From positions 1 through 31,098 of the forward strand of contig JAYSNU010000072.1 of the NCBI GenBank assembly GCA_043723545.1: a stretch of DNA of 31,098 bases, in the 5' to 3' direction. This stretch comes from Candidatus Nomurabacteria bacterium. Its GTDB lineage: Bacteria; Patescibacteriota; Minisyncoccia; Phycocordibacterales; UBA9973. This document shows positions 13,633 to 25,210 of the stretch, in pieces (the stretch's first letter is position 1; each line of letters opens with the position of its first letter). Both the position numbers and the translations under genes were made by a program. The notes below the pieces were generated by a model. The model did not search any database and was not told where the DNA came from. It saw nothing but the letters and a program-made list of their open reading frames with translations.

Positions 13633-14640
13633 ATGGCGTTTATAGATGAAATAAAAATATATGCAGAGGCCGGACGTGGTGGCGACGGTGTCGTACGTTG
13701 GCGTCAAGAAAAATTTGTACCCAAAGGTGGACCTGCTGGTGGTGATGGTGGCCGTGGAGGTGACTTTTTTGTAGAAGGTGTAAGAGATGTTCATATTCTT
13801 TCTAAATATAAAGCGAAGAAGTCTTTTACTGCGGAACGTGGTGAAGACGGTGGCAAGAAGAGTCTTCATGGTAAAAATGGAGAAGATTTTATCTTAAAAT
13901 TACCGCTTGGTTCCATTATTACAAATCTAGAAACGGATCAAAAATGGGAGCTTATAAATGAAGGAGAAAAAATAATGATTCTTCGTGGTGGTTATGGGGG
14001 TTTTGGTAATGAACATTTTAAAAGTTCTGTTAACACTACACCCATGGAGTCTAAAGAAGGCAAAGAAGGTGATAAGGGGGATTTTAAAATTGAACTTCAA
14101 ATTTTTGCTGATATTGGTCTAATTGGGCTTCCAAATGCCGGTAAATCGTCTCTTCTTAATGCTCTTACGAATGCAGATGCAAAGGTTGGTGATTATGAAT
14201 TTACCACTCTAGACCCTAATTTGGGTGATTTTTATGGCTATACTATCGCTGATATTCCGGGACTTATAGAGGGAGCAAATACTGGGAAAGGCTTAGGAGT
14301 TAAGTTTTTACGCCATATAAAACGTACTAAAATGCTAGCCCACCTCGTTTCATTTGAAAATTTATCAAAGAGTTCCACTGGCATGATAAAGGTTTACAAA
14401 CAGATTAGAAAAGAGTTGGAGAAATATGACAAAAATTTAGGCCTAAAAGAAGATGGCCTTGCTACCAAAGAGGAGATAATAATTTTGACTAAGACTGATG
14501 TTATAGATAATTCAAAAGTGGTTGCAAAACAAGTTGCAGATTTTAAAAAACTTGGAAATAAAGTTTTTGTTTTATCTCTGTATGACGATAAATCTGTGAA
14601 AAGTTTTCAAGATTCTCTAATCAAAATTCTTAAAAAGTAA
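13633..14640 (+). CDS. obgE: GTPase ObgE/CgtA
   Basis: AFIDE..AGRGGDG..WRQEK..P.GGP.GGDGG; GLPNAGKSS; YEFTTL; DIPGLIEGA. Confidence 0.96.
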   Translation: MAFIDEIKIYAEAGRGGDGVVRWRQEKFVPKGGPAGGDGGRGGDFFVEGVRDVHILSKYKAKKSFTAERGEDGGKKSLHGKNGEDFILKLPLGSIITNLETDQKWELINEGEKIMILRGGYGGFGNEHFKSSVNTTPMESKEGKEGDKGDFKIELQIFADIGLIGLPNAGKSSLLNALTNADAKVGDYEFTTLDPNLGDFYGYTIADIPGLIEGANTGKGLGVKFLRHIKRTKMLAHLVSFENLSKSSTGMIKVYKQIRKELEKYDKNLGLKEDGLATKEEIIILTKTDVIDNSKVVAKQVADFKKLGNKVFVLSLYDDKSVKSFQDSLIKILKK

Positions 14641-14656
14641 TTTCGATCTAATATTC

Positions 14657-14679
14657 TGCGCAAGGTTTCGCCTTGCGCA
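14657..14679 (+). repeat. REP palindrome (family A)
   Basis: TGCGCAAGG-TTTCG-CCTTGCGCA, identical to the copies flanking the RAYT gene; lies between convergent genes. Confidence 0.88.
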
Positions 14680-14734
14680 TAGATTGATTTTAAGTATTTT
14701 TCTATTGACAACAATTAAAAGTTACTTTCTGTTG

Positions 14735-14977
14735 TTAATTTGTTAAGTGTTTAACAACAATCTTTTTGAACTCTCTTTTTGTGTTTTTTCTAAGTCCTGA
14801 CCCATTTTCAATTTCTTGTATAACCTCTTCCAGATCTTCAATTTTGTAAACTCTGTAATTATTCATAGGATGACGGAAAGCTTTTAGCATTCCATTTTTG
14901 TCCCAATTTCGGAGGGTTAGAGGGGAGACCCCCAAGATATTTGATGCTTCCTTTATTGTAATATATTTTTGGGGCAT
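14735..14977 (-). CDS. Small MerR-type/excisionase-like HTH DNA-binding protein
   Basis: YITIKEASNILGVSPLTLRNWDKNG.L...RHPMNNYRVY; lacks the long MerR dimerisation/effector domain. Confidence 0.88.
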   Translation of the reverse strand: MPQKYITIKEASNILGVSPLTLRNWDKNGMLKAFRHPMNNYRVYKIEDLEEVIQEIENGSGLRKNTKREFKKIVVKHLTN

Positions 14978-14978
14978 A

Positions 14979-15039
14979 TTTTTTACATTCATAAACCTTA
15001 ATAGAGGTATATTTTTTTACATTCATAAACCTTAATAGA
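14979..15039 (+). repeat. 27-bp perfect direct repeat, two copies
   Basis: TTTTTTACATTCATAAACCTTAATAGA at 14979-15005 and 15013-15039. Confidence 0.9.
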
Positions 15040-15262
15040 CATTTATAATCATATATGATTATAAAAACCTTTGCAATATTTTCTTGTTAATAAAATGTGT
15101 ATATATTATTTTTTAAAATAGCATGATTTTATGTTTTGAGATAGGTATTTTTTTATGGTAATAAAGAAGAATTAGTTTTTTATAAAACTAGCCATAAGGG
15201 GTTCTATTTTGAGATAATTTTTTTATAGTTTTTTGTTTAATTTTTCATATAGTTTTTGTTTC

Positions 15263-15299
15263 CCGAGATTCTCCGAGATTCTCCGAGATTCTCCGAGAT
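15263..15299 (+). repeat. 10-bp tandem repeat array (CCGAGATTCT x3.7), possible operator
   Basis: CCGAGATTCT three times plus CCGAGAT, in the intergenic region between divergent HTH-bearing genes. Confidence 0.85.
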
Positions 15300-15372
15300 G
15301 TTTTTTGTTTTCAACATATTTTGAACATATTCTCATTGTTTTTATAAAGGGTTGAAATGTATAATTATCTTA

Positions 15373-18300
15373 ATGAGTTCGGACCTATTTAAAGATAATA
15401 AGAAATATATCTCAGCCAAGGAAGCCAGCTCTTTGACTGGCTATTCCAGAGACTACATAGGTCAACTTGCAAGAGGTAATAAAATTGATTCAAAAAAAAT
15501 TCGAGGTGTTTGGTATGTGGAAGAAAAATCAATTCTTCAGTATAACGATTTTTCAATTGAGTTGGGGACACCTATTGTGCATGAACCAGTTTTAAAGAAA
15601 AATGCACTTGTTTCAGAAAATTTAGATAAAAAAATCTTAGAATCAAAATTTACCTCAGTTATTTTACCTAAACCATTTGTACCCACACTAATTCATTTAC
15701 CTCCCAAAACTCTTTGGCCAGAAATAAAAAAAACTTCTCTAAAGAAAAACATATCTTTATCTCAAAAATTATTATTAACTACTTTTGGGTTTTTAGTTTC
15801 TGTGGGAGTATTTTCTTTAATTGATATTAGCTCTTCTCTTAAACAGCTTGATGGGCCTAATTTGACCGCGAATGTTCTTAATGAAAATCCTTCTTATTTT
15901 GGGAAACTATCTGGCAATGTTATTGATGCTTTTTCTGATCTTTTGTTTCATTATTTTTATGGACCAGAAGTTGATTATACAAATGTGGCTGTAATCAAAC
16001 ATTCAACTAAACCTATTCCCACACCTGAGGTTGCAACAGTGATTACACCAGAACTAATAACAAAAACAAAAATAGAATATCCTAAAACTATAATTATTCG
16101 TGGACCCGCAGGACCCAAGGGATCTACAGGATCACGTGGATTAACTGGGCTACAAGGACTTAAGGGTGATGCTGGTATTCAAACATTTAATTCTACGAGT
16201 TCTTCACAACCTGCTTATATTCCAGTTTATTCTGCACCTATTGGAATTATTCAATCCAATCCTGCAACCAATTATTCTGGTGGCAGTTTGTTTTCGGCGA
16301 CAGATTTGTCTTCTCGTAATTTCAATACCACTAATGCAAATATTGGTTCTTTAAATGTTTCGGGAGATTCTATATTACAGGGAAATTTAACAACCATGGC
16401 GGGAATATCTTCTTCTGGAACGATTAATTTCTCTGGATTAACTGCCTCAAGAGGAGTTTTTACTGATGGTTCAAAAAATTTAACTTCGACTGGAATCCTC
16501 GGCGCTGATCAAGGCGGCACCGGTATTGCCAACAATGTCGCTTCAACTTTTACAATTTCCGGAAACTTCGGAACAACTTTTACAATCAGTGGTTCAACCG
16601 CTGTAACTCTTCCAACTTCTGGAACACTTTATGGCACGGCTACTGGCTCTATCACATCTCTGCAACTTGCAACATCACTATCTGATGAAACGGGAAGTGG
16701 TTTAGCAGTTTTCGGAACAAGTCCAACAATTTCCGGTCTAACATTAAGTGGCTTTACTCCTGGTTCAATGCTTTTTACCGGAACATCTGGTGTTGTAATT
16801 CAAGATAATGCAAATTTATTTTTTGATGATACAAATAATAGATTGGGAATCGGCACAACAACACCGCTTGCAGTATTTGATTTAAGACAAGGTGTAAATG
16901 GCGAAACTATGTTTTCTGGTCGAAGATTTACTGATGTTGCCCCATCTGGAGATTTCATTACCTACAACAATGCTGCCAATGACACTGCACTCTTTCGGGT
17001 AGATAATTCTGGAAATCTTTTTGCAGGAGGAATTTTAAATTCAGGAAGTCAAACTATCACTTCCACCTCCACTCCGCAATTTCGAGTGCAATATAATGCA
17101 TTAAATGAAAGTTCTCTTTCAGTATCTTCAGCTGGAGTTGCAACTTATGGTTTTAATGGCACCACACCTCGAGCTATCTGGACTCCACAATCAAACCTTA
17201 CAAATACTTTTACTTTTACTGATTCATCATCAAATCCAATTTTGAATATTGATACAACGAATCAAAGAGTCGGAATTGGGACTGCCACATCAAACACTTT
17301 CAAACTCGAAGTCGCAGGCAACATCGGACCAGAAGCAGATAACACTAGAGACCTAGGTGCAGTCGCGAAAAGATGGGCGAACTTATACGCGACTAATATA
17401 ACCGGTGCAATCACTCCAACCGGATTCACTCAAGGTTCAGTTGCCTTCGCTGGAGCTTCTGGTATGCTCTCTCAAGACAATGCGAATTTTTTTATTGATG
17501 ATACGAACAATACATTAGGTATCGGTAGTACACGTACAGGAGTTATCTCAGCAACTAATGCTCGTCTGTTGCTAAAAGGTAGTGGTGTAACTTCCGCTAC
17601 TTCTTCTTTTGATGTTCAAGATTCTACTGGCGCTTCGAATTTCTTTGTACGTGATGATGGCAACGTCGGCATCGGGACGACTGCACCAGCACAAAAATTG
17701 GATGTCGTGGGGAATATTCAATTTAATACAAATGGAGGGCAAGCTATACTTGTTTCAAATTATAAAGGAGCTAATTCTGATGGGAATAACTTATTTATTG
17801 GTGGAGGTGGGCAGAGTAGTATTGGAGAAGTTGGAGCTACTTATAAAGGCTCTTCCAACACCGCTAATGGATATGGTTCTCTCTTATCCAACACCACAGG
17901 ATATCAAAACACCGCTAATGGGGTTTATTCTCTCTACTCCAACACCACAGGGCTTAGCAACACCGCTAATGGATATGGTTCTCTCTACTCCAACACCACA
18001 GGAAATCAAAACACCGCTAATGGTTTTCTTTCTCTCGCCTCCAACACCACTGGCTCTTCCAACACCGCTAATGGATTTTATTCTCTCTACAACAACACCA
18101 CAGGATATCAAAACACCGCTAATGGATATGGTTCTCTCACCTTCAACACCACAGGGCTTAGCAACACCGCTAATGGATATTATTCTCTCTTATCCAACAC
18201 CACAGGAAATAACAACACCGCTAATGGGGTTTATTCTCTCTACTCCAACACCACAGGAGTTAACAACACCGCTAATGGATATGGTTCTCTCTATGACTTC

Positions 18301-21300
18301 AATGTTTCTGACGGCTCGGGTAACAATACAGCAATTGGTTATAACACTGGTAGAGGAATTGTAACTGGTATTAATAACACAATTCTCGGAGCTAATGTAA
18401 CTGGACTTTCTTCTACATTATCAAACAATATCATTATCGCTGATGGGTCGGGTAATCAAAGGATTAATGTTGACTCAAGCGGCAACGTCGGAATAGGTGT
18501 TACGAATCCGCTACATAAGTTAACTGTTGGTAATTCTTGGACAGGTACATCTCCTACAGTGATGACAGATGAATTTTCTAGCTTGGCAGGTTATTTGCCA
18601 AGCATGAGTATAAATGCTTCTACTACAAACTCCACTCTTTATGTGAAATCAATCGGCCTAAATCTTCATAATAATGATTTAACTTTAGGTGTGCGTACAC
18701 CAGCAATATCATTTTCTCAACGAGTAAATGCTAATTATTCTGCTTCTATTGGAGCGATTGATGTTATGTCTGGTGGTGGCAAGAATTCTGATTGGATTTC
18801 TGGTTCTATGATTTTTAGCACTGCTGGTTCACAAGATTATGGTCTAAAGGAAAGAATGCGAATTACTTCTCTTGGCTATGTAGGTATAGGGAAAACTGAT
18901 CCAAATAATAAGTTAATGGTTGGGTTAAATACTACTAATGGTCTTGTTTTATTAAATGGTAATGGGGGGTTAGACCAAACCTTTCCGACTGTTAATTTTA
19001 CGACTAGTTCAAGTAATACAACGAATTATGTATATAGTGTTGGTTTAAACCTTCTTAATGATGACATTACAGCCGGTGGTCGTTCGGCCGCTCTTACATT
19101 TGGTAAGAAAACAACACAGTTTTCTGATACATTAGGAGCAATAGATGCAGTTGATGTTGGTGTTGGAGTAAATGAAGATTGGCATGGGGGAGATATGGTA
19201 TTTCATACTGCAAACAAAGAAACATTTGGCATCACAGAAAAAATGAGAATCACAAGCACCGGCAACGTCGGAATAGGTGTTACGAATCCGTCCGAAAAAC
19301 TCACGGTGGTGGGTGGAGACATTTCAGTCGATGGTGGTAAGGCTATCATGCTTGTCCACGGTAGTCTGAACAATAGCATTTTTAGAAATAATGGTACTGG
19401 GAATACAACTATTTCATCTCCTTCAAATAGCGGCGGAATATCTTTTATACTTAATGGAGATCCCAATATCGAAATTATGAGAGCTTATAGTGGCGCTTTT
19501 CAATCAGGGGTCGGCATCGGGATTACAAACCCATCAGCAAAATTACACATTGTTCAAAATCCTATTAATAATGGAATAAATCCAGGTATTATTTATGTTG
19601 GTGCTGTGCATAATAGCCAAACACTTTCAACTGAAATTTCATCTGTCAATATCACAACTGCGGGCAGGCAATGGGCGACAGGTAATATTTCTATGGAGAG
19701 AGAAGTATTAATTACTCAACCTACTTATTCATTCGTCGGAGCATCAACAATCACTGATGCGGCCACAATGAGCATCGTTGGCGCACCGATCAATGGCACG
19801 AATGCGACCTTGACGAACACTTATGGACTTCTCATCCAGGCAGGAGCCGTTTCAACTGCGATCAACAGCTACGGCCTTACAGTTAATGCTCAAACAGGAG
19901 CGACGAATAATTACGTTGCCACATTCTTGGGTGGCAACGTCGGCATCGGGACGACGGGGCCGGGGGCGAAATTGCAGATTAATACTGCAACAGGTGTTAA
20001 TTTTCAAGATGCTATAAAATTAGTCAAGGATGGAGGATATGGAGAAACTTCAATACAGAACTATTACTCAACTATTAATAATTTTGGAATGGGTTTTCAT
20101 ACTGATGCCGGAACGGTAATGGTAATAAATAACAGCGGCAACGTCGGTATAGGTACGATAAATCCAGGCACAAAATTGGTAGTTACAGGAACAGGCGCAG
20201 CCATTGGGGGAGGATTCATAGCCTCGGCCCCACTCTTCGTCAATGATTCAACACTAAGTACTCGGGGTGTCGCCATAGGTTATGATGCAACTCTTGAAGC
20301 CGGCTTTATTCAAGCGGGTAAGCAAGGTGTGGCATATGAACCACTTTTATTGAATCCAAACGCCGGAAACGTCGGCATTGGGACGACGTTTCCGGTGTCA
20401 AAATTTCACGTATCAGGCGGCGGTGCAACTGGAAGCGTCGATAGCAGTACACTCTTGATGATTGACGGAACTGGTGACGGCATCGTCGCTCAGCTCAACA
20501 ATGCAAACGCAGCAAATGCCGAAACACTTCTCGCATTCTCATACCGCAATGCGGGTAATGCATCAGGAGCCGTTCCTGCTGCGATCGGATACAAAATAGA
20601 CTCTGACGGATTTACAGGGCAGACCAAGGGCGCGCTCGTATTCAAAACTCGAGGAGGTACGACCGGTGTCGCCCCAACTGAACGTATGCGCATTGACTCA
20701 AGTGGCAACGTCGGCATCGGGACGACGACACCGGCGATGAAGCTTTCCGTTGTTCAAGGTGCTTCAGGTGACCTTTATCCAACAAACACGCAGGCGATAT
20801 TCGAATATAACGCGAATGGTGGAATAGTTGTCGCAGTACCTGATGCGAATGCCGGGGGATTGTATTTTCCGAAGTCCACTGACGCATATTATTCCGGCAT
20901 TGAAAGAAGCACATCTAATCTGAACCTGAGGAATAACGGCTCGACGCGATTAACGATCGACTCTAGTGGCAACGTCGGCATCGGGACGACGGTGCCGGGG
21001 GCGAAGCTGGATGCTGTCTCGTCGACTGGAAGTGCGGGGAGATTTTCTGGATATACTTACACTAGGGTTGCAGCAGATGCCACATCGGGAACAATTCAAA
21101 TTGGTAGCAACACTAACTATTCAGGTTATATCGACTACGGTGGTAGTAGCGCCCCATCTGGATCAGTAAATTTGACATTCTCGAACTCGTACGATTCTCC
21201 GGCTGATGGTTTTTTGTTCCGTGGACGTACCAGTGGCACTGCCGTTAACGCAATGATGATTCAAGGCAACGGCAACGTCGGTATTGGGTTGACGAATCCA

Positions 21301-22932
21301 AGTGATAAGTTAGTAGTTTATGGAATTAATCCCGTTATTAGATTAACTGATTCTTCTCAAGGAAATACTTCTTTCCTCCAACAATTGGACAATGCAAATG
21401 GAGCAGCTTTGAGAATATATGACGGCACACTTTACAGTACTTATTTCAAGGGTGGCAACGTCGGCATCGGGACGACGAATCCGGGGGCGAAATTAGAAGT
21501 TAATGGATTTACGAAAATTACATCTGGCTCAGTCGATTCTAATTGGAATGAACAATTATTGGTGTTAGGCAATGGTACGTATGACCCAAAAATTGTTCTT
21601 GGTTCAAATAATGGTTATCGTTGGAGCATTAGAAATGCCGACCCATCTTCCAGTGGTCAGCTATCGTTTAGATATGAAGAAGGTTCTTTAGACGCAATGA
21701 CAATATCAAGAAACGGCAACGTCGGGATTGGGACGACGGCACCAAGTCAAAAATTAGAAGTAATGGGTGATGTTCAGATTAACGGTGGTTTACACCTTGA
21801 TGCGGGTGCTGGAGCCACCTCTCCTTTATCTGGGATTATACTTGCTGGTAAATATGAAGGAGCTTTATATTCAAATGGAGGTATTCGTGCTAATGGATTT
21901 CAACAAAATTCTCCATATGATGGTGGAGTTTCATTACAAAGAAATTACTATAATGGTGCTGCATACGTTTATCAAGATGTATTAAATGTTACTGGCGCAG
22001 GCAACGTCGGGATAGGGACGACGGCGCCGGGCGCACCACTCGAGGTCAAGGGTACGAGCACAGGTGGCACTATCGCCAAGTTCACCGATCTCAACACCAC
22101 CGGCTGTACCCTCGCGACTGGTGGCACAATTTCTTGTAGTTCAGATCAAAGATTGAAGAAGAATGTCACGGATATAAGTTATGGGTTGGATACAGTGATG
22201 TCATTACACCCAGTACTCTTTAATTGGAATTATGAAAATGATGGTACAACAAAAAATCTTGGTTTCATCGCCCAAGAAGTCGAAATTGTAGTCCCTAAAT
22301 TAGTTTCTACTGATGATGGTGGAATGAAATCTTTAAATACTACAGCGATAGTTCCTATTTTAACGAAATCGATTCAAGAATTAAATTTAAATATGAAATC
22401 AATATCAGAACCTATACCCACAATCGGTTCTTTTGGAGATAAATTTTTTACAAATTTATTTGCTCGACTTATAGCATGGTTCGCTAATAGTGCAAATGGG
22501 ATCGGAGAATTTTTCGCAAAGAAAGCTACACTCGAAGAAGTGTGTTTGAAAGATGCTACCGGCACATCTTGCTATAACAGAACTCAGCTAGATACTTTGC
22601 TTGCCAGCGCCGTGACTTCCGCGCAAGGCGCGCAAGGCGAAACCTTACGCACAAAACCAGAGGTTTCTCCAGTAGTAGATACGATAGCTCCGGTCATTAC
22701 ATTGACAGGTGAAACAAATATTACCCTCAATGTTGGGGATACATATACTGAAGCAGGGGCAACTGCCACTGACAATGTAGATACAAATGTTGCTGTGGTG
22801 ATTTCTGGAACAGTTGATACGACTGTCGCTGGTACATATATTGTTAATTATAATGCGCAAGACACAGCAGGGAACAAAGCAATAGAAGTTATCAGAACAA
22901 TTAATGTCACCGTCCTTGGTGGGACCCCTTAA
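15373..22932 (+). CDS. Giant membrane-anchored fibre/adhesin-like protein: N-terminal HTH, TM, short collagen-like stretch, GNVGIGT-module stalk, peptidase S74 chaperone, C-terminal DUF5011-like Ig domain
   Basis: YISAKEASSLTGYSRDYIGQLAR (HTH); LLLTTFGFLVSVGVFSLI (TM); GPAGPKGSTGSRGLTG; many GNVGIGTT repeats; SDQRLKKNV...GFIAQEV (S74); DTIAPVITLTG...TATDNVD...GTYIVNY (DUF5011-like). TATAAT 15360-15365 favours ATG 15373. Confidence 0.88.
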   Translation: MSSDLFKDNKKYISAKEASSLTGYSRDYIGQLARGNKIDSKKIRGVWYVEEKSILQYNDFSIELGTPIVHEPVLKKNALVSENLDKKILESKFTSVILPKPFVPTLIHLPPKTLWPEIKKTSLKKNISLSQKLLLTTFGFLVSVGVFSLIDISSSLKQLDGPNLTANVLNENPSYFGKLSGNVIDAFSDLLFHYFYGPEVDYTNVAVIKHSTKPIPTPEVATVITPELITKTKIEYPKTIIIRGPAGPKGSTGSRGLTGLQGLKGDAGIQTFNSTSSSQPAYIPVYSAPIGIIQSNPATNYSGGSLFSATDLSSRNFNTTNANIGSLNVSGDSILQGNLTTMAGISSSGTINFSGLTASRGVFTDGSKNLTSTGILGADQGGTGIANNVASTFTISGNFGTTFTISGSTAVTLPTSGTLYGTATGSITSLQLATSLSDETGSGLAVFGTSPTISGLTLSGFTPGSMLFTGTSGVVIQDNANLFFDDTNNRLGIGTTTPLAVFDLRQGVNGETMFSGRRFTDVAPSGDFITYNNAANDTALFRVDNSGNLFAGGILNSGSQTITSTSTPQFRVQYNALNESSLSVSSAGVATYGFNGTTPRAIWTPQSNLTNTFTFTDSSSNPILNIDTTNQRVGIGTATSNTFKLEVAGNIGPEADNTRDLGAVAKRWANLYATNITGAITPTGFTQGSVAFAGASGMLSQDNANFFIDDTNNTLGIGSTRTGVISATNARLLLKGSGVTSATSSFDVQDSTGASNFFVRDDGNVGIGTTAPAQKLDVVGNIQFNTNGGQAILVSNYKGANSDGNNLFIGGGGQSSIGEVGATYKGSSNTANGYGSLLSNTTGYQNTANGVYSLYSNTTGLSNTANGYGSLYSNTTGNQNTANGFLSLASNTTGSSNTANGFYSLYNNTTGYQNTANGYGSLTFNTTGLSNTANGYYSLLSNTTGNNNTANGVYSLYSNTTGVNNTANGYGSLYDFNVSDGSGNNTAIGYNTGRGIVTGINNTILGANVTGLSSTLSNNIIIADGSGNQRINVDSSGNVGIGVTNPLHKLTVGNSWTGTSPTVMTDEFSSLAGYLPSMSINASTTNSTLYVKSIGLNLHNNDLTLGVRTPAISFSQRVNANYSASIGAIDVMSGGGKNSDWISGSMIFSTAGSQDYGLKERMRITSLGYVGIGKTDPNNKLMVGLNTTNGLVLLNGNGGLDQTFPTVNFTTSSSNTTNYVYSVGLNLLNDDITAGGRSAALTFGKKTTQFSDTLGAIDAVDVGVGVNEDWHGGDMVFHTANKETFGITEKMRITSTGNVGIGVTNPSEKLTVVGGDISVDGGKAIMLVHGSLNNSIFRNNGTGNTTISSPSNSGGISFILNGDPNIEIMRAYSGAFQSGVGIGITNPSAKLHIVQNPINNGINPGIIYVGAVHNSQTLSTEISSVNITTAGRQWATGNISMEREVLITQPTYSFVGASTITDAATMSIVGAPINGTNATLTNTYGLLIQAGAVSTAINSYGLTVNAQTGATNNYVATFLGGNVGIGTTGPGAKLQINTATGVNFQDAIKLVKDGGYGETSIQNYYSTINNFGMGFHTDAGTVMVINNSGNVGIGTINPGTKLVVTGTGAAIGGGFIASAPLFVNDSTLSTRGVAIGYDATLEAGFIQAGKQGVAYEPLLLNPNAGNVGIGTTFPVSKFHVSGGGATGSVDSSTLLMIDGTGDGIVAQLNNANAANAETLLAFSYRNAGNASGAVPAAIGYKIDSDGFTGQTKGALVFKTRGGTTGVAPTERMRIDSSGNVGIGTTTPAMKLSVVQGASGDLYPTNTQAIFEYNANGGIVVAVPDANAGGLYFPKSTDAYYSGIERSTSNLNLRNNGSTRLTIDSSGNVGIGTTVPGAKLDAVSSTGSAGRFSGYTYTRVAADATSGTIQIGSNTNYSGYIDYGGSSAPSGSVNLTFSNSYDSPADGFLFRGRTSGTAVNAMMIQGNGNVGIGLTNPSDKLVVYGINPVIRLTDSSQGNTSFLQQLDNANGAALRIYDGTLYSTYFKGGNVGIGTTNPGAKLEVNGFTKITSGSVDSNWNEQLLVLGNGTYDPKIVLGSNNGYRWSIRNADPSSSGQLSFRYEEGSLDAMTISRNGNVGIGTTAPSQKLEVMGDVQINGGLHLDAGAGATSPLSGIILAGKYEGALYSNGGIRANGFQQNSPYDGGVSLQRNYYNGAAYVYQDVLNVTGAGNVGIGTTAPGAPLEVKGTSTGGTIAKFTDLNTTGCTLATGGTISCSSDQRLKKNVTDISYGLDTVMSLHPVLFNWNYENDGTTKNLGFIAQEVEIVVPKLVSTDDGGMKSLNTTAIVPILTKSIQELNLNMKSISEPIPTIGSFGDKFFTNLFARLIAWFANSANGIGEFFAKKATLEEVCLKDATGTSCYNRTQLDTLLASAVTSAQGAQGETLRTKPEVSPVVDTIAPVITLTGETNITLNVGDTYTEAGATATDNVDTNVAVVISGTVDTTVAGTYIVNYNAQDTAGNKAIEVIRTINVTVLGGTP
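17659..22023 (+). repeat. Dispersed in-frame GC-rich junction motif GGCAACGTCGG (12 copies)
   Basis: Starts at 17659, 18481, 19261, 19933, 20137, 20365 (GGA variant), 20704, 20968, 21271, 21454, 21715, 22000. Confidence 0.92.
17857..18294 (+). repeat. Coding tandem repeat, 51 nt / 17 aa (NTANGxxSLxxNTTGxx), 8 full copies plus one partial
   Basis: AACACCGCTAATGG recurs every 51 nt from 17857 to 18265. Confidence 0.95.
22621..22651 (-). repeat. REP family A copy (plus half-site) in-frame within giant CDS
   Basis: 22629-22651 matches the reverse complement of the REP at 21/23, preceded by half-site GCGCAAGGC; encodes AQGAQGETLR. Confidence 0.8.
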
Positions 22933-22945
22933 AATAAAACACAAA

Positions 22946-22983
22946 TGCGCAAGGTTTCGCCTTGCGCAAAAATGCCTTGCGCA
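22946..22983 (+). repeat. REP family A copy plus half-site, downstream of RAYT
   Basis: TGCGCAAGGTTTCGCCTTGCGCA 22946-22968; GCCTTGCGCA 22974-22983. Confidence 0.9.
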
Positions 22984-22989
22984 AAAAAA

Positions 22990-23649
22990 CTATTCCTTTG
23001 TAAAAGAAAGCCAGAATCTAATCATTTCTTTGAAATTAGTAGTATTTTCAAAATACTGAGGGAAAGCTCTCTCATTGATTATCACATTTTCTGTCCTGTT
23101 TAAATTGATATATTTTCCGTAGCTTGAATATTGATATTCTGTTAAAAATTTTTCTGCTTTCGTTTGATTTTTTATTCCATTTTTTTTCCAAGTTGCATCA
23201 ATTAATTTGATTGGATTTAGATGTATGTATGAATAAATATATTTTAAATAGTTATCATCATCTAAGTGTTCTGCTTTAAAAACACCTTGAAACAAAACCC
23301 CATTACGTTCGTATTTTTTATTGAAATACATAGTGTAAGCAGTCGTTAATTTTTGCATAAATAAACTTATACTATTTTCTGTTTTTTCTTTTAATAAAAG
23401 ATGGAAATGATTTGGCATTAAGCAATATGCTCCAATTTCTACCAAATTTTCTCCACGATCTTTCTCAAACAAATCTTTAAATGATTGTCTTCGCGTGTCG
23501 ATACGGATAGGTTCTTTAGAATTAGCAAGATAAAGAAGTATGATAAATCTTTCGTAATCATTTTTTGTAATAAATATTCTTCTTTTATCGGTTCCTCTAT
23601 TATAAATATGATAAAATTCATTAATTGAAAAAGTTATTGGACGTGACAT
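22990..23649 (-). mobile_element. REP-associated tyrosine transposase (RAYT, Y1 HUH family)
   Basis: YHIYNRG, AYCLMPNHFHLL (HUH), YFNKKYER.G.LFQG, YIHLNP (catalytic Tyr), YSSY; identical palindromes on both sides. Confidence 0.92.
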
Positions 23650-23677
23650 ATTTATATAATAATCTTATTAAAATATA

Positions 23678-23700
23678 TGCGCAAGGTTTCGCCTTGCGCA
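23678..23700 (+). repeat. REP family A copy upstream of RAYT
   Basis: TGCGCAAGGTTTCGCCTTGCGCA; stem extends to 11 bp (23676-23702). Confidence 0.9.
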
Positions 23701-23740
23701 TAGAAATAATTTTTGAAGAGAATATGTTAAAATGAGCGTT

Positions 23741-25210
23741 ATGAAGAAAAAATATTATCCGACAATAGGACTCGAAATACATGCAGAATTAAAGACACAA
23801 ACAAAGATGTTTTGTGCTTGCAAGAATGACCCTGACGAAGAAAAACCCAACAAAAACGTTTGTCCTGTATGTATGGCTCACCCCGGTGCATTGCCAGTAA
23901 TAAACAAACAAGCGGTAGAAAATGTCATTAAAGTCGGTCTTGCTTTGGGCTCCACTATCGCCAACTTTTCAGAATTTGATAGAAAAAATTATTTTTATCC
24001 AGATATACCGAAGGGTTATCAGATTTCGCAATATAAATATCCAATAGTTTCTGGTGGAGCTTTGGCAAATATGGACATTACTCGTATTCACTTGGAAGAA
24101 GACACAGGCAATAACAAACACCTAGATATAGATAAATCTTCCCCTACCCCCGGGGTAGGGGAAGAGGGATATTCTCTGATTGATTTTAATCGTGCTGGAG
24201 TGCCTTTGATGGAACTTGTAACTGAAGCGCATACCTTTGATACGGCGGAAGAAGCTGCAAAAGTTGCTTCCAATTTTGCTAAAGAATATCAATTACTTCT
24301 TTGGTATCTTGGTGTTTCCGAAGCAAATATGGAGAAAGGTGAAATGCGCGTAGAAGCGAATGTTTCTATTTCACCAGATAAAGATAAAAAGTGGAATGAA
24401 TATGTAGAAGTTAAAAATTTGAATTCTTTCCGTAGTGTTGAGCGAGCTATCAAATTTGAGGTAGAAAGAATGGTAGAACTTTTTGAAACAGGGCATGAGT
24501 CTGAAATAGTTAAAGAAACTCGAGGCTTTGATGAATCTAAACAGAAAACATTTTCCCAAAGAAGAAAAGAGTCTAGTCATGATTATAGATATTTCCCTGA
24601 CCCTGATTTGCCAAAAATGAAATTACATAGTGCATTTGATTTGGAAAAAATGGAGAAAGAATTACCAGAACTTCCTGTGGCCAAGCGGGCACGATATAAG
24701 AATGATTTTGGAATTAAAAATGAAGATATTGAAGCGTACATAAATGATATGACTCTCGGTGTATGGTTTGAGAATATTGCAAGAATTCTTGATAACAAAG
24801 AGAAAATAAAAATTGCCTCCAACTACATCACAACAGATTTTATTGGTTTAAAGAAAAATAATAAAGAGGTAAACATGCCAAGTGCCAAGAATATGGCAGA
24901 ACTCGCCTCGATGATTATGGAAGGAATGATAAGTTCTCGCGGAGCGAAGGACATCTTAGCTATGATTGTAGTGAAAGATCAAGCCCCAATGAAAATTGCT
25001 CTTGAAAAAGATTTGTTACAAAAGAATGATGTAGGTGTATTAAAAGAAATTGCACAAAAAATTATTGATGCAAATGAAAAAGTTGTAGCTGATTATAAGG
25101 GTGGTAAAGAACAAGCTTTAATGTCACTCGTGGGTCAAATTATGAAAGAAACGAAGGGAAGTGCTAATCCAGAAGTAGCTAGGAAGACTTTAATAGATTT
25201 GCTAAAATAG
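23741..25210 (+). CDS. gatB: Asp/Glu-tRNA amidotransferase subunit B
   Basis: IGLEIHAEL, FDRKNYFYPD.PKGYQISQ, HLEED, NRAGVPL.E, DYRYFPDPDL, GQIMK. Confidence 0.97.
   Translation: MKKKYYPTIGLEIHAELKTQTKMFCACKNDPDEEKPNKNVCPVCMAHPGALPVINKQAVENVIKVGLALGSTIANFSEFDRKNYFYPDIPKGYQISQYKYPIVSGGALANMDITRIHLEEDTGNNKHLDIDKSSPTPGVGEEGYSLIDFNRAGVPLMELVTEAHTFDTAEEAAKVASNFAKEYQLLLWYLGVSEANMEKGEMRVEANVSISPDKDKKWNEYVEVKNLNSFRSVERAIKFEVERMVELFETGHESEIVKETRGFDESKQKTFSQRRKESSHDYRYFPDPDLPKMKLHSAFDLEKMEKELPELPVAKRARYKNDFGIKNEDIEAYINDMTLGVWFENIARILDNKEKIKIASNYITTDFIGLKKNNKEVNMPSAKNMAELASMIMEGMISSRGAKDILAMIVVKDQAPMKIALEKDLLQKNDVGVLKEIAQKIIDANEKVVADYKGGKEQALMSLVGQIMKETKGSANPEVARKTLIDLLK
24137..24165. repeat. Perfect 14-bp inverted repeat in-frame within gatB
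   Basis: TCTTCCCCTACCCC-C-GGGGTAGGGGAAGA, encoding SSPTPGVGEE. Confidence 0.85.

What the first reader, a model, noticed from the sequence alone, without database searches (positions are those of the whole stretch)
22621..23702. RAYT-REP system with an inverted REP pair bracketing the fibre's terminal Ig domain (cargo-carrying REPIN-like unit)
Seen: identical 23-bp REPs flank the RAYT (22946, 23678), and another lies 8 kb away (14657). A fourth copy is inverted and translated in-frame (22629-22651). The copies at 22621-22651 and 22946-22983 both have a full+half-site layout and are inverted relative to each other, enclosing the ~295 bp that encode the DUF5011-like domain and stop. Established: RAYTs cleave at REPs, and REPINs are inverted REP pairs mobilised by RAYT, normally extragenic and without coding cargo. 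Inference: RAYT activity may have added or may exchange the C-terminal domain.
Basis: partly seen in the sequence, partly recalled or inferred. Interest (0 to 1): 0.7.

Follow-up and report, generated by a model that had tools for sequence, protein, structure and literature searches.

The report
Translated REP hairpin in fibre linker
A small selfish DNA hairpin (REP) belonging to a neighbouring RAYT transposase has landed in-frame in a flexible linker of a giant surface-fibre gene. It did not bring the Ig domain behind it, which is present in relatives that have no such hairpin.

Summary
Three perfect 23-bp REP hairpins lie at 14657, 22946 and 23678. A fourth, inverted copy with two mismatches (22629-22651) is translated as AQG-AQG-ETLRT. 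Two REPs flank a Y1/HUH RAYT-like gene. These four are the only copies in the 607-kb genome.

- Nine homologues carry the same S74 chaperone, linker and C-terminal Ig layout with no hairpin in the linker or after the stop. Two are in a genome where no RAYT was found.
- The nearest relative on both sides of the REP is the same protein (P0101). The mosaic junction lies 130-230 nt upstream of the REP, so the REP sits inside one inherited block.
- The 294-bp inter-REP segment is single-copy.

The in-frame REP is best read as an independent insertion into a variable linker. The identical 23-mer is also translated inside purH, murI and mnmA on other metagenome contigs, and another RAYT's REP sits in murD and a holB-like gene of a congener. 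All six frames of the REP are stop-free.

Separately, the 9.1-kb block from the HTH gene through the fibre to the RAYT interrupts an obg-gatB junction conserved across the order and is bounded by direct REPs.

An earlier follow-up in this scan reported translated hairpin repeats of another family in this genome.

The parts
13633..14640 (+). obg (GTPase), left flank of the inserted block
   Evidence: Pfam GTP1_OBG E 9e-47. It is adjacent to gatB in most relatives.
14657..14679 (+). REP copy 1, perfect, 17 nt after the obg stop; left boundary of the 9.1-kb block
14735..14992 (-). small MerR/excisionase-type HTH gene inside the block
   Evidence: Weak NCBIfam matches to the IS607 N-terminal HTH, HspR and the excisionase domain, E 5e-6 to 1e-4, all below cut-off.
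15352..22932 (+). giant fibre ORF (2526 aa), 41% GC against 34% in the flanks
22141..22305 (+). Peptidase_S74 intramolecular-chaperone domain; begins with S-D-Q-R-L-K (Ser and Lys five residues apart)
   Evidence: Pfam E 8.6e-14; sequence.
22390..22490 (+). approximate mosaic junction: upstream the closest relatives are P0081/P0102/P0074/P0121, downstream the closest is P0101
   Evidence: Sliding-window identities.
22621..22651 (-). in-frame REP derivative: 23-bp hairpin (22629-22651, 2 mismatches) plus an abutting duplicated arm (22621-22629); encodes AQGAQGETLRT in the inter-domain linker
   Evidence: Both differences from the consensus fall on synonymous third positions (GGC vs GGT, TTA vs TTG), read directly.
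22696..22908 (+). C-terminal Bact_surface_Ig-like (DUF5011) domain
   Evidence: Pfam E 9.7e-16. It is 68-75% identical to the Ig domains of REP-free homologues.
22946..22982 (+). REP copy 2 (22946-22968, perfect) plus a spaced extra arm (22974-22982), between the convergent fibre and RAYT genes
   Evidence: It scores as terminator-like on the - strand.
22990..23649 (-). RAYT-like Y1/HUH transposase (219 aa), single copy in this genome
   Evidence: H81-x-H83 and Y141 are invariant in 10 homologues.
23678..23700 (+). REP copy 3, perfect, 31 nt before the gatB start; right boundary of the block
23732..25210 (+). gatB, right flank of the inserted block
   Evidence: Pfam GatB_N E 5e-100; synteny.

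Best explanation
Window positions 22990-23649 encode a RAYT-type Y1/HUH single-strand DNA transposase. It sits between two identical copies of its cognate 23-bp REP hairpin.

A further copy of that hairpin, with one arm duplicated, became part of the low-complexity linker that joins the fibre's S74 chaperone region to a pre-existing C-terminal Ig domain. It either inserted there or overwrote part of the linker. The hairpin has no stop codon in any of its six frames, and the 9-bp arm duplication keeps the frame. It is therefore translated as a harmless hydrophilic stretch (AQG-AQG-ETLRT). It differs from the consensus only at two synonymous third-codon positions; one of them coincides with the arm-duplication junction and may not be a point change.

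The Ig domain was not delivered by the REP pair. It belongs to a block inherited on both sides of the REP site. Its inverted orientation relative to the REP behind the stop codon follows from where the two hairpins happen to lie.

What is shown and what is inferred:
- Shown: the anatomy, the conserved domain layout in REP-free relatives, the ancestry that spans the REP, and translated copies of the same REP in other genes.
- Inferred: that the RAYT placed the copy, and the order of events.
For: 1. Nine homologues have the S74 region, a variable Gly/Ser/Pro linker and a C-terminal Ig domain. None has a hairpin with a perfect stem of 7 bp or more at the linker or stop positions where the window has its REPs. 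L004 and L025 come from G013, a 94%-complete genome in which no RAYT was found.
2. The REP-coded residues fall in the most variable, gapped part of the alignment.
3. In 20-aa windows, tail residues 1-125 are 65-95% identical to P0081 and P0102 but about 30% to P0101. Residues 160-200 (before the REP) and 221-300 (after it) are 65-80% identical to P0101. The exchange junction is therefore upstream of the REP, not at it.
4. L004 and L025 lie in the same genome. Their Ig domains are 90% identical but their S74 regions only 46%, so Ig domains are exchanged between paralogues in a genome where no RAYT was found.
5. The 294-bp inter-REP segment is single-copy in the genome.
6. The exact 23-mer occurs on 7 other metagenome contigs. 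On L054 it flanks a RAYT that is 71% identical. On L055 and L059 it forms a back-to-back dimer next to a RAYT. It also lies in-frame in purH (L056, peptide FAQGETLRK, same frame as here), in murI (L057/L060, LRKVSPCA, 4 residues longer than PDB 1b73) and in mnmA (L058, CARRNLAQ).
7. In congener G007, a different RAYT's REP has 7 copies. Two of the 3 copies away from the RAYT are in-frame, in murD and in a holB-like ORF.
8. All six frames of the REP are open.
9. RAYT homologues in relatives are each flanked by their own hairpins with a shared AAGG/CCTT core.
Against: - Homologues are only 45-75% identical in the relevant blocks, so the ancestry argument rests on old divergence. No near-identical strain lacking the REP was found.
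- Some of the closest S74-region relatives (P0081, P0102, P0121) lack the Ig domain. Gain and loss of modules at this linker does therefore happen in the family.
- Only the two copies that bracket the Ig segment share the unusual duplicated arm. This suggests they are sister copies rather than fully independent arrivals.
- No enzymatic activity of this RAYT has been shown.
Confidence: 0.8

Rival explanations
1. The inverted REP pair (22621-22651 and 22946-22983) is a REPIN-like unit carrying the Ig-coding segment as cargo, and RAYT added or exchanges this C-terminal domain.
For: - The two copies are inverted, in the same polarity as the back-to-back REP dimer on L055/L059. Both carry the duplicated arm.
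- The family does gain and lose modules at this linker.
- The window gene is a mosaic.
Against: - The Ig domain is at the same place in nine hairpin-free homologues, two of them in a genome where no RAYT was found.
- The mosaic junction is 130-230 nt upstream of the REP, and P0101-like sequence continues across it.
- The unit is single-copy.
- The 294-bp spacer is unique coding DNA that cannot form the REPIN hairpin.
- Ig exchange occurs in a genome where no RAYT was found.
Confidence: 0.04
2. The inverted REPs act as recombination sites for an inversion switch. Flipping 22652-22945 would end the fibre five codons after the REP (a 2438-aa form without Ig), giving phase-variable presence of the Ig domain.
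For: - Inverted repeats matching at 21 of 23 positions, plus extra arms, bracket exactly the last domain and the stop codon.
- The simulated inversion gives ...ETLRICVLF-stop.
- Invertible C-terminal segments are known in phage tail-fibre genes (established knowledge: the Gin, Cin and Min systems).
Against: - No invertase gene lies nearby.
- Y1 transposases are not known to invert duplex DNA.
- The repeats are very short for homologous recombination.
- The inverted state yields no alternative domain, only a truncation.
Confidence: 0.04
3. The whole block from 14657 to 23700 (HTH gene, giant fibre, RAYT) is a REP-bounded mobile island. It was inserted as a unit, or in two steps at a REP, by RAYT-type single-strand transposition or by recombination at the REP. 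This concerns a larger scale and can coexist with the best explanation of the in-frame copy.
For: - obg and gatB are about 5-60 bp apart in most relatives where both genes were located on one contig, across families of the order.
- Here 9.1 kb lies between them. Perfect direct REPs sit 17 nt after the obg stop and 31 nt before the gatB start.
- The fibre is 41% GC against 34% in the flanks.
- The closest RAYT (71% identical, same REP, L054) also follows a large surface-type gene but in a different context, with tgt downstream.
- A fibre followed by REP, RAYT and REP recurs in G033, and a RAYT followed by REPs and a giant ORF in G021.
Against: - RAYTs alone also sit in the obg-gatB gap of G022 and G037. 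A RAYT-REP unit may therefore have arrived first and the fibre cassette later by another route.
- No second copy or empty site of this island was found.
- A rough estimate gives no enrichment of RAYT next to giant genes: about 4-6 cases seen against about 4 expected.
- IS200/IS605 relatives are not known to move 9 kb.
Confidence: 0.15

Closest known systems
RAYT-REP/REPIN systems of Proteobacteria (E. coli TnpA-REP; Pseudomonas Group 2 and 3 RAYTs; Bertels et al. 2017, PMC5581495; Bertels and Rainey 2011, PMC3116915)
   Same: - A Y1/HUH transposase gene flanked by its cognate short palindromic repeats.
- Single RAYT copy in this genome.
- The hairpin varies between RAYT paralogues, apparently matched to each RAYT.
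   Different: - The REP population is tiny: 4 copies here and 7 for one RAYT in G007, against tens to hundreds.
- No typical REPIN doublets occur in this genome.
- Copies lie inside genes and are translated.
- Congeners carry up to 12 divergent RAYT homologues in genomes of 0.6-0.8 Mb, whereas 1.3-1.8 per replicon are reported in PMC5581495.
- The protein is below the NCBIfam REP_Tyr_transpos cut-off.
- No GTAG or CGTC tag adjoins the hairpin.
Rickettsia palindromic elements (RPEs), reviewed in PMC10969869
   Same: Palindromic repeats inserted in-frame into unrelated protein-coding genes, housekeeping genes included. They are translated as extra peptide segments that the protein tolerates.
   Different: - RPEs are about 100-150 bp and no transposase is linked to them.
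- Here the unit is a 23-bp hairpin tied to a neighbouring RAYT.
- In two cases (mnmA, holB-like) it causes little or no net length change (none in mnmA, one residue shorter in the holB-like ORF).
IS200/IS605-family insertion sequences (ISDra2 and IS608 TnpA)
   Same: - An HUH/Y1 transposase with subterminal hairpins on both sides in direct orientation.
- A profile of the RAYT family weakly matches ISDra2 TnpA around the HUH motif (E 0.017).
   Different: - No identical multi-copy element exists in this genome.
- The NCBIfam IS200 match is much weaker than the RAYT match.
- The hairpins are identical perfect palindromes rather than distinct left and right ends.
Phage tailspike and fibre proteins with a C-terminal intramolecular chaperone domain (Peptidase_S74; K1F endosialidase type)
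   Same: An S74 domain with Ser and Lys five residues apart (S-D-Q-R-L-K) near the C-terminus of a very long fibre.
   Different: About 210 further residues follow the S74 domain: a helical region, the linker with the REP peptide, and the Ig domain. If self-cleavage occurs as in the phage proteins (my knowledge, not tested), the Ig domain would leave with the released fragment rather than form the fibre tip.

Membership tests
RAYT (REP-associated tyrosine transposase) | Y1/HUH transposase domain with the HUH motif and a catalytic Tyr | tested here: met
   Pfam Y1_Tnp scores 46.9 bits against a gathering score of 23. H81-F-H83 and Y141 (in Y-I-H-L-N-P) are invariant in 10 homologues.
RAYT (REP-associated tyrosine transposase) | Reaches the curated NCBIfam equivalog score for REP_Tyr_transpos | tested here: not met
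   46.8 bits against a cut-off of 80. It is still the best NCBIfam match and far ahead of transpos_IS200 at 18.3 bits.
RAYT (REP-associated tyrosine transposase) | Gene flanked by copies of its cognate REP | tested here: met
   Perfect copies lie at 22946 and 23678. The same holds for homologues in relatives and for the 71%-identical RAYT on L054.
RAYT (REP-associated tyrosine transposase) | Single copy per genome, vertically inherited | tested here: inconclusive
   There is one copy in G000, but 1-12 divergent copies in congeners. The closest homologues are not at the syntenic site.
RAYT (REP-associated tyrosine transposase) | Associated with an abundant extragenic REP/REPIN population | tested here: not met
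   The 607-kb assembly, 97% complete, holds only 4 copies, and one of them is intragenic.
RAYT (REP-associated tyrosine transposase) | Binds and cleaves REP single-stranded DNA | not testable with these tools
   Needs biochemistry.
REPIN (REP doublet forming a hairpin) | Two inverted REPs close enough to fold into one long hairpin | tested here: not met
   The spacer is 294 bp of unique Ig-coding DNA that is not self-complementary.
REPIN (REP doublet forming a hairpin) | The doublet unit is repeated in the genome | tested here: not met
   The inter-REP segment matches only itself.
REP (repetitive extragenic palindrome) | Short (20-40 bp) palindromic unit repeated beyond chance | tested here: met
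   Four copies against 0 in 100 shuffles; 9-bp stem and 5-nt loop.
REP (repetitive extragenic palindrome) | Extragenic location | tested here: not met
   One of 4 copies here is translated. The same 23-mer lies in-frame in purH, murI and mnmA elsewhere.
RPE-like in-frame palindromic elements | In-frame presence in unrelated protein-coding genes with the reading frame continuing | tested here: met
   Fibre, purH, murI and mnmA. For a sister REP, murD and a holB-like ORF.
RPE-like in-frame palindromic elements | Element of about 100-150 bp encoding a conserved peptide | tested here: not met
   The unit is 23 bp (31 bp with the extra arm). Three different frames are used.
Peptidase_S74 self-cleaving chaperone fibres | S74 domain with a Ser-Lys pair | tested here: met
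   Pfam E 8.6e-14. S-D-Q-R-L-K is seen. Cleavage itself was not tested.

The most novel reading that the evidence does not exclude
In this ultra-small-genome lineage, RAYT-type transposases and their hairpins may behave differently from the textbook REP/REPIN system in two ways.
1. The hairpins colonise coding DNA in-frame. This part is essentially observed here for two REP families.
2. Three direct REPs bound a 9.1-kb block of an HTH gene, a giant fibre gene and the RAYT itself, dropped into the otherwise conserved obg-gatB junction. This would mean the RAYT/REP machinery can capture and move large cargo such as host-attachment fibres.

The probability given is for the cargo-moving part.
Probability: 0.15. 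Interest if true: 0.75.

Novelty: new variant of a known kind. Interest (0 to 1): 0.45.

Why it matters
REPs are extragenic by name, and RAYT-REP systems have been described almost only in Proteobacteria. The held library has no paper linking RAYTs to the Candidate Phyla Radiation.

Here a RAYT-linked hairpin is translated inside a surface fibre. The identical hairpin is also translated inside housekeeping enzymes of related organisms. This ties an identifiable enzyme to the kind of in-frame palindromic insertions so far known mainly from Rickettsia, where the mobilising enzyme is unknown. A purified RAYT and its hairpin would make that question testable.

For the finding as written, the result is negative. 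The hairpin pair did not deliver the Ig domain.

Tried and rejected
- Public reads. The four sediment runs that hold this DNA are kept only as Logan contigs. Laid on 14400-24000, they confirm the fibre-REP-RAYT-REP-gatB order: one 2551-nt contig covers 21454-24000 with no differences. They show no strand-switch or empty-site joint at the REPs. Contigs drop rare variants, so this carries no weight either way.
- Species-representative genomes. The exact-match scan for the 23-mer found nothing. It leaves out the window's own genome and needs exact identity.
- PDB. phmmer with the RAYT found nothing. A family profile gives only a weak ISDra2 TnpA match, E 0.017.
- Rfam. At gathering thresholds on the window and on three contigs with the other repeat family, only one tRNA was found.
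- Antisense ORF. The 99-aa antisense ORF at 22645-22944 could in principle have been an alternative C-terminus after inversion. It is in the wrong frame, and the inverted gene stops after 5 codons.
- RAYT next to giant surface genes. Several cases were seen (G033, G039, G021, G038, L054), but a rough expectation of about 4 chance adjacencies among about 110 RAYT hits is of the same size. No claim is made.
- Chance resemblance of the coding sequence to the REP. Rejected: 21 of 23 positions match, an extra arm is present, and no shuffle matched.


Full report
**1. What is in the sequence**

The 23-bp unit TGCGCAAGGTTTCGCCTTGCGCA has a 9-bp stem and a 5-nt loop. It occurs perfectly on the + strand at 14657, 22946 and 23678. 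It occurs inverted, with two mismatches, at 22629-22651. None of 100 shuffles gave a match.

The arm GCCTTGCGC is duplicated next to both copies that bracket the end of the fibre gene. It abuts the in-frame copy at 22621-22629. It follows the 22946 copy after six bases, at 22974-22982.

The window is contig C72 of a 607-kb assembly with 34% GC, 97% completeness and 95 contigs. Allowing four mismatches, these four copies are the only ones in the assembly.

The gene between the last two copies (22990-23649, - strand) matches Pfam Y1_Tnp above threshold.
- Its best NCBIfam match is REP_Tyr_transpos, at 46.8 bits against a cut-off of 80. That is far better than the IS200 model.
- H81-x-H83 and Y141 are invariant in ten homologues.
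- It is the only such gene in the genome.

The 2526-aa ORF at 15352-22932 carries Peptidase_S74 at aa 2264-2318 and a Bact_surface_Ig-like (DUF5011) domain at aa 2449-2519. The in-frame copy is read as AQG-AQG-ETLRT.

**2. Is it a RAYT-REP system?**

Forty relatives of the same genus and order were searched. RAYT homologues were found in 31 of them, with up to 12 divergent copies per genome.

In most of the loci inspected, the gene is flanked by its own hairpins. These hairpins share the loop-proximal stem AAGG...CCTT, while the outer stem differs from one RAYT to the next.

A scan of metagenome contigs for the exact 23-mer found seven contigs.
- On L054 the two copies flank a RAYT that is 71% identical to the window's.
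- On L055 and L059 a back-to-back inverted dimer sits beside a RAYT that is 44% identical.

The gene-hairpin association is therefore real and conserved.

It departs from the described RAYT systems (PMC5581495, PMC3116915) in three ways.
- The repeat population is very small.
- There are many RAYT paralogues in congeners.
- The location of the copies differs, as section 4 shows.

**3. Did the REP pair bring the Ig domain?**

It is.

Six-frame searches of relatives, and the protein database, returned proteins with the same order of parts: S74 domain, a conserved region of about 70 aa, a variable Gly/Ser/Pro linker, then the Ig domain.
- These are L003, L004, L025, L006, L011 (cut by its contig end), L026, L027, L012, P0074 and P0101.
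- None of the nine examined at DNA level has a hairpin with a perfect stem of 7 bp or more at the linker or stop positions where the window has its REPs.
- L004 and L025 come from G013, where no RAYT was found with this query at 94% completeness.
- The REP-coded residues fall exactly in the gapped, variable linker.

A sliding-window comparison adds a second argument.
- The S74 part of the window protein (tail residues 1-125) is 65-95% identical, in 20-aa windows, to P0081, P0102, P0074 and P0121. It is only about 30% identical to P0101.
- From about tail residue 160 onward the best match switches to P0101. This holds both for the 40 residues before the REP and for the Ig domain after it, at 65-80%.
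- The gene is therefore a mosaic. Its junction lies at roughly 22390-22490, which is 130-230 nt upstream of the REP.
- The REP interrupts a block that is contiguous in P0101. In place of P0101's 55-aa linker the window has 22 aa, of which 11 are REP-coded.

Module exchange at this end of the gene is real but does not need a RAYT. The two paralogues in G013 have Ig domains that are 90% identical and S74 regions only 46% identical. Some close relatives (P0081, P0102, P0121) carry other tails instead of Ig.

The inter-REP segment has no second copy in the genome. The cargo-REPIN reading is thus not supported.

**4. What the in-frame copy is**

The same 23-mer lies inside conserved genes on other contigs, with the reading frame running on into conserved C-terminal motifs.

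| Gene | Locus | REP-coded peptide | Comparison |
|---|---|---|---|
| purH | L056 | FAQGETLRK | same strand and frame as in the fibre |
| murI | L057, L060 | LRKVSPCA | four residues longer than Aquifex MurI (PDB 1b73) at that loop |
| mnmA | L058 | CARRNLAQ | no length change against E. coli MnmA (PDB 2der) |

In congener G007, the hairpin of another RAYT has seven copies.
- Four are around the RAYT.
- One is in murD, where the protein is six residues longer than the G000 orthologue.
- One is in a holB-like ORF, with almost no length change (one residue shorter than the G000 orthologue).
- One is intergenic.

RAYT genes of relatives even carry their own hairpin in-frame.

All six frames of the REP are free of stop codons.

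In the fibre, both differences from the consensus are synonymous third positions (GGC for GGT, TTA for TTG; read). One of them coincides with the arm-duplication junction.

The most economical reading is that a REP copy came to lie in a tolerant linker and is now drifting under coding constraint. The closest parallel is the Rickettsia palindromic elements (PMC10969869). Here the unit is much shorter and has a candidate enzyme next door.

The shared duplicated arm suggests that the in-frame copy and the 22946 copy are sisters, perhaps from a local inverted copying event. I could not test this.

**5. The larger picture**

obg and gatB are direct neighbours, with gaps of about 5-60 bp, in most relatives where both genes were located on one contig, across many families of the order. 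In the window, 9.1 kb separates them.

The block starts with a perfect REP 17 nt after the obg stop. It ends with a perfect REP 31 nt before the gatB start. It holds, in order:
- a small HTH gene,
- the fibre gene,
- a third REP,
- the RAYT.

In G013 the nearest fibre homologue sits about 5 kb away, on the other side of obg. The fibre's position therefore differs between these two genomes.

RAYTs alone also occupy the obg-gatB gap in G022 and G037. They have other hairpins, and they are not the closest RAYT relatives.

Whether the block moved as a REP-bounded unit, or a fibre cassette landed next to a resident RAYT, cannot be decided.

An inversion between the inverted REPs would truncate the fibre five codons after the REP. 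The available contigs show no such form, but they cannot exclude it.

**6. Functional note (inference from established knowledge of S74 domains)**

The S-D-Q-R-L-K motif at the start of the S74 domain is intact. In phage proteins, everything C-terminal of that serine is released after folding. If that holds here, the REP peptide and the Ig domain are on the released fragment and not at the tip of the mature fibre. That would further lower the cost of carrying a REP there.

**7. Verdict**

- The RAYT-REP assignment is supported as a divergent variant.
- The domain-delivery idea is not supported.
- What remains of interest is that RAYT-linked REPs in this lineage are few, sit in genes and are translated, and that they bound a large insertion.

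An earlier follow-up in this scan (e1-5331272) reported translated hairpin repeats of a different family in the same genome. The general phenomenon has therefore been seen before in the scan.

Noticed in passing
L028 (G000:C68) at 917, 1963, 3519 and 6085; L029 (G000:C2:6746); L030 (G000:C65:21435): A second repeat family occurs in six intergenic places. Its conserved core is about 75 nt, or about 115 nt with an optional insert. The core starts ATGCCTTGCGCAGG and ends GATAGATTGCAT. Each core sits inside locus-specific inverted repeats that extend the hairpin. Including the A-run that precedes it, it shares the 15-mer AAAATGCCTTGCGCA with the extra REP arm at window 22970-22984. There was no Rfam match.
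   Followed up: partly
L014 1979-1997; L018 1562-1580; L023 1972-1992; L051 9744-9762; L032 2071-2107; L049 1257-1287; L050 7858-7884: RAYT genes of relatives contain a hairpin in-frame. In six of the seven it is a copy of the RAYT's own flanking hairpin; the one in L050 resembles the gatB palindrome instead. In four of them it lies at a homologous position (aa 55-61, reading R-x-G-x-T/S-x-x). In three it is an insertion of 7-9 aa next to the HUH or Tyr motifs.
   Followed up: partly
window 24137-24165: A perfect GC-rich palindrome (13-bp stem) lies inside gatB. A similar palindrome encodes TSPKPGLGEE inside a RAYT gene on L050. The scan's note e1-5331271 also flagged it.
   Followed up: no
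L058 3313-3335 (mnmA); L062 1202-1222 (holB-like): In these two genes the translated REP replaces a loop with little or no net length change against REP-free orthologues (none in mnmA, one residue shorter in the holB-like ORF). Simple insertion does not explain this. It could be insertion plus deletion, or some overwriting process.
   Followed up: partly
L004 (G013:C1) and L025 (G013:C6): Two fibre paralogues in one genome where no RAYT was found have Ig domains that are 90% identical and S74 regions only 46% identical. This points to gene conversion or exchange of the terminal domain within a genome.
   Followed up: partly
L031 (G022), L032 (G037), L033-L042: The obg-gatB spacer is a recurrent landing place. 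It holds RAYTs with other hairpins in G022 and G037, and unrelated inserts of 0.3-1.3 kb in about ten other genomes, among them a GC-rich ORF in L039 and a small hydrophobic ORF in L040.
   Followed up: partly
window 15007-15326: In all four sediment runs, a contig matches this 320-bp stretch upstream of the fibre gene but continues into different sequence on both sides. The regulatory region therefore also exists in another context in the community.
   Followed up: no
window 22964-22973: Run X4 holds a low-depth variant of the REP behind the fibre stop: G22964A, T22973C and a 2-nt deletion at 22968. One X4 contig ends inside this REP.
   Followed up: no
L054 378-4338; L055 1456-2226: The RAYTs that share the exact REP on other contigs also sit next to large proteins or likely surface proteins. 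These are 921-aa and 402-aa ORFs without Pfam hits, the first with a weak match to the fibre's post-chaperone region, and a Laminin_G_3 lectin-domain protein.
   Followed up: partly
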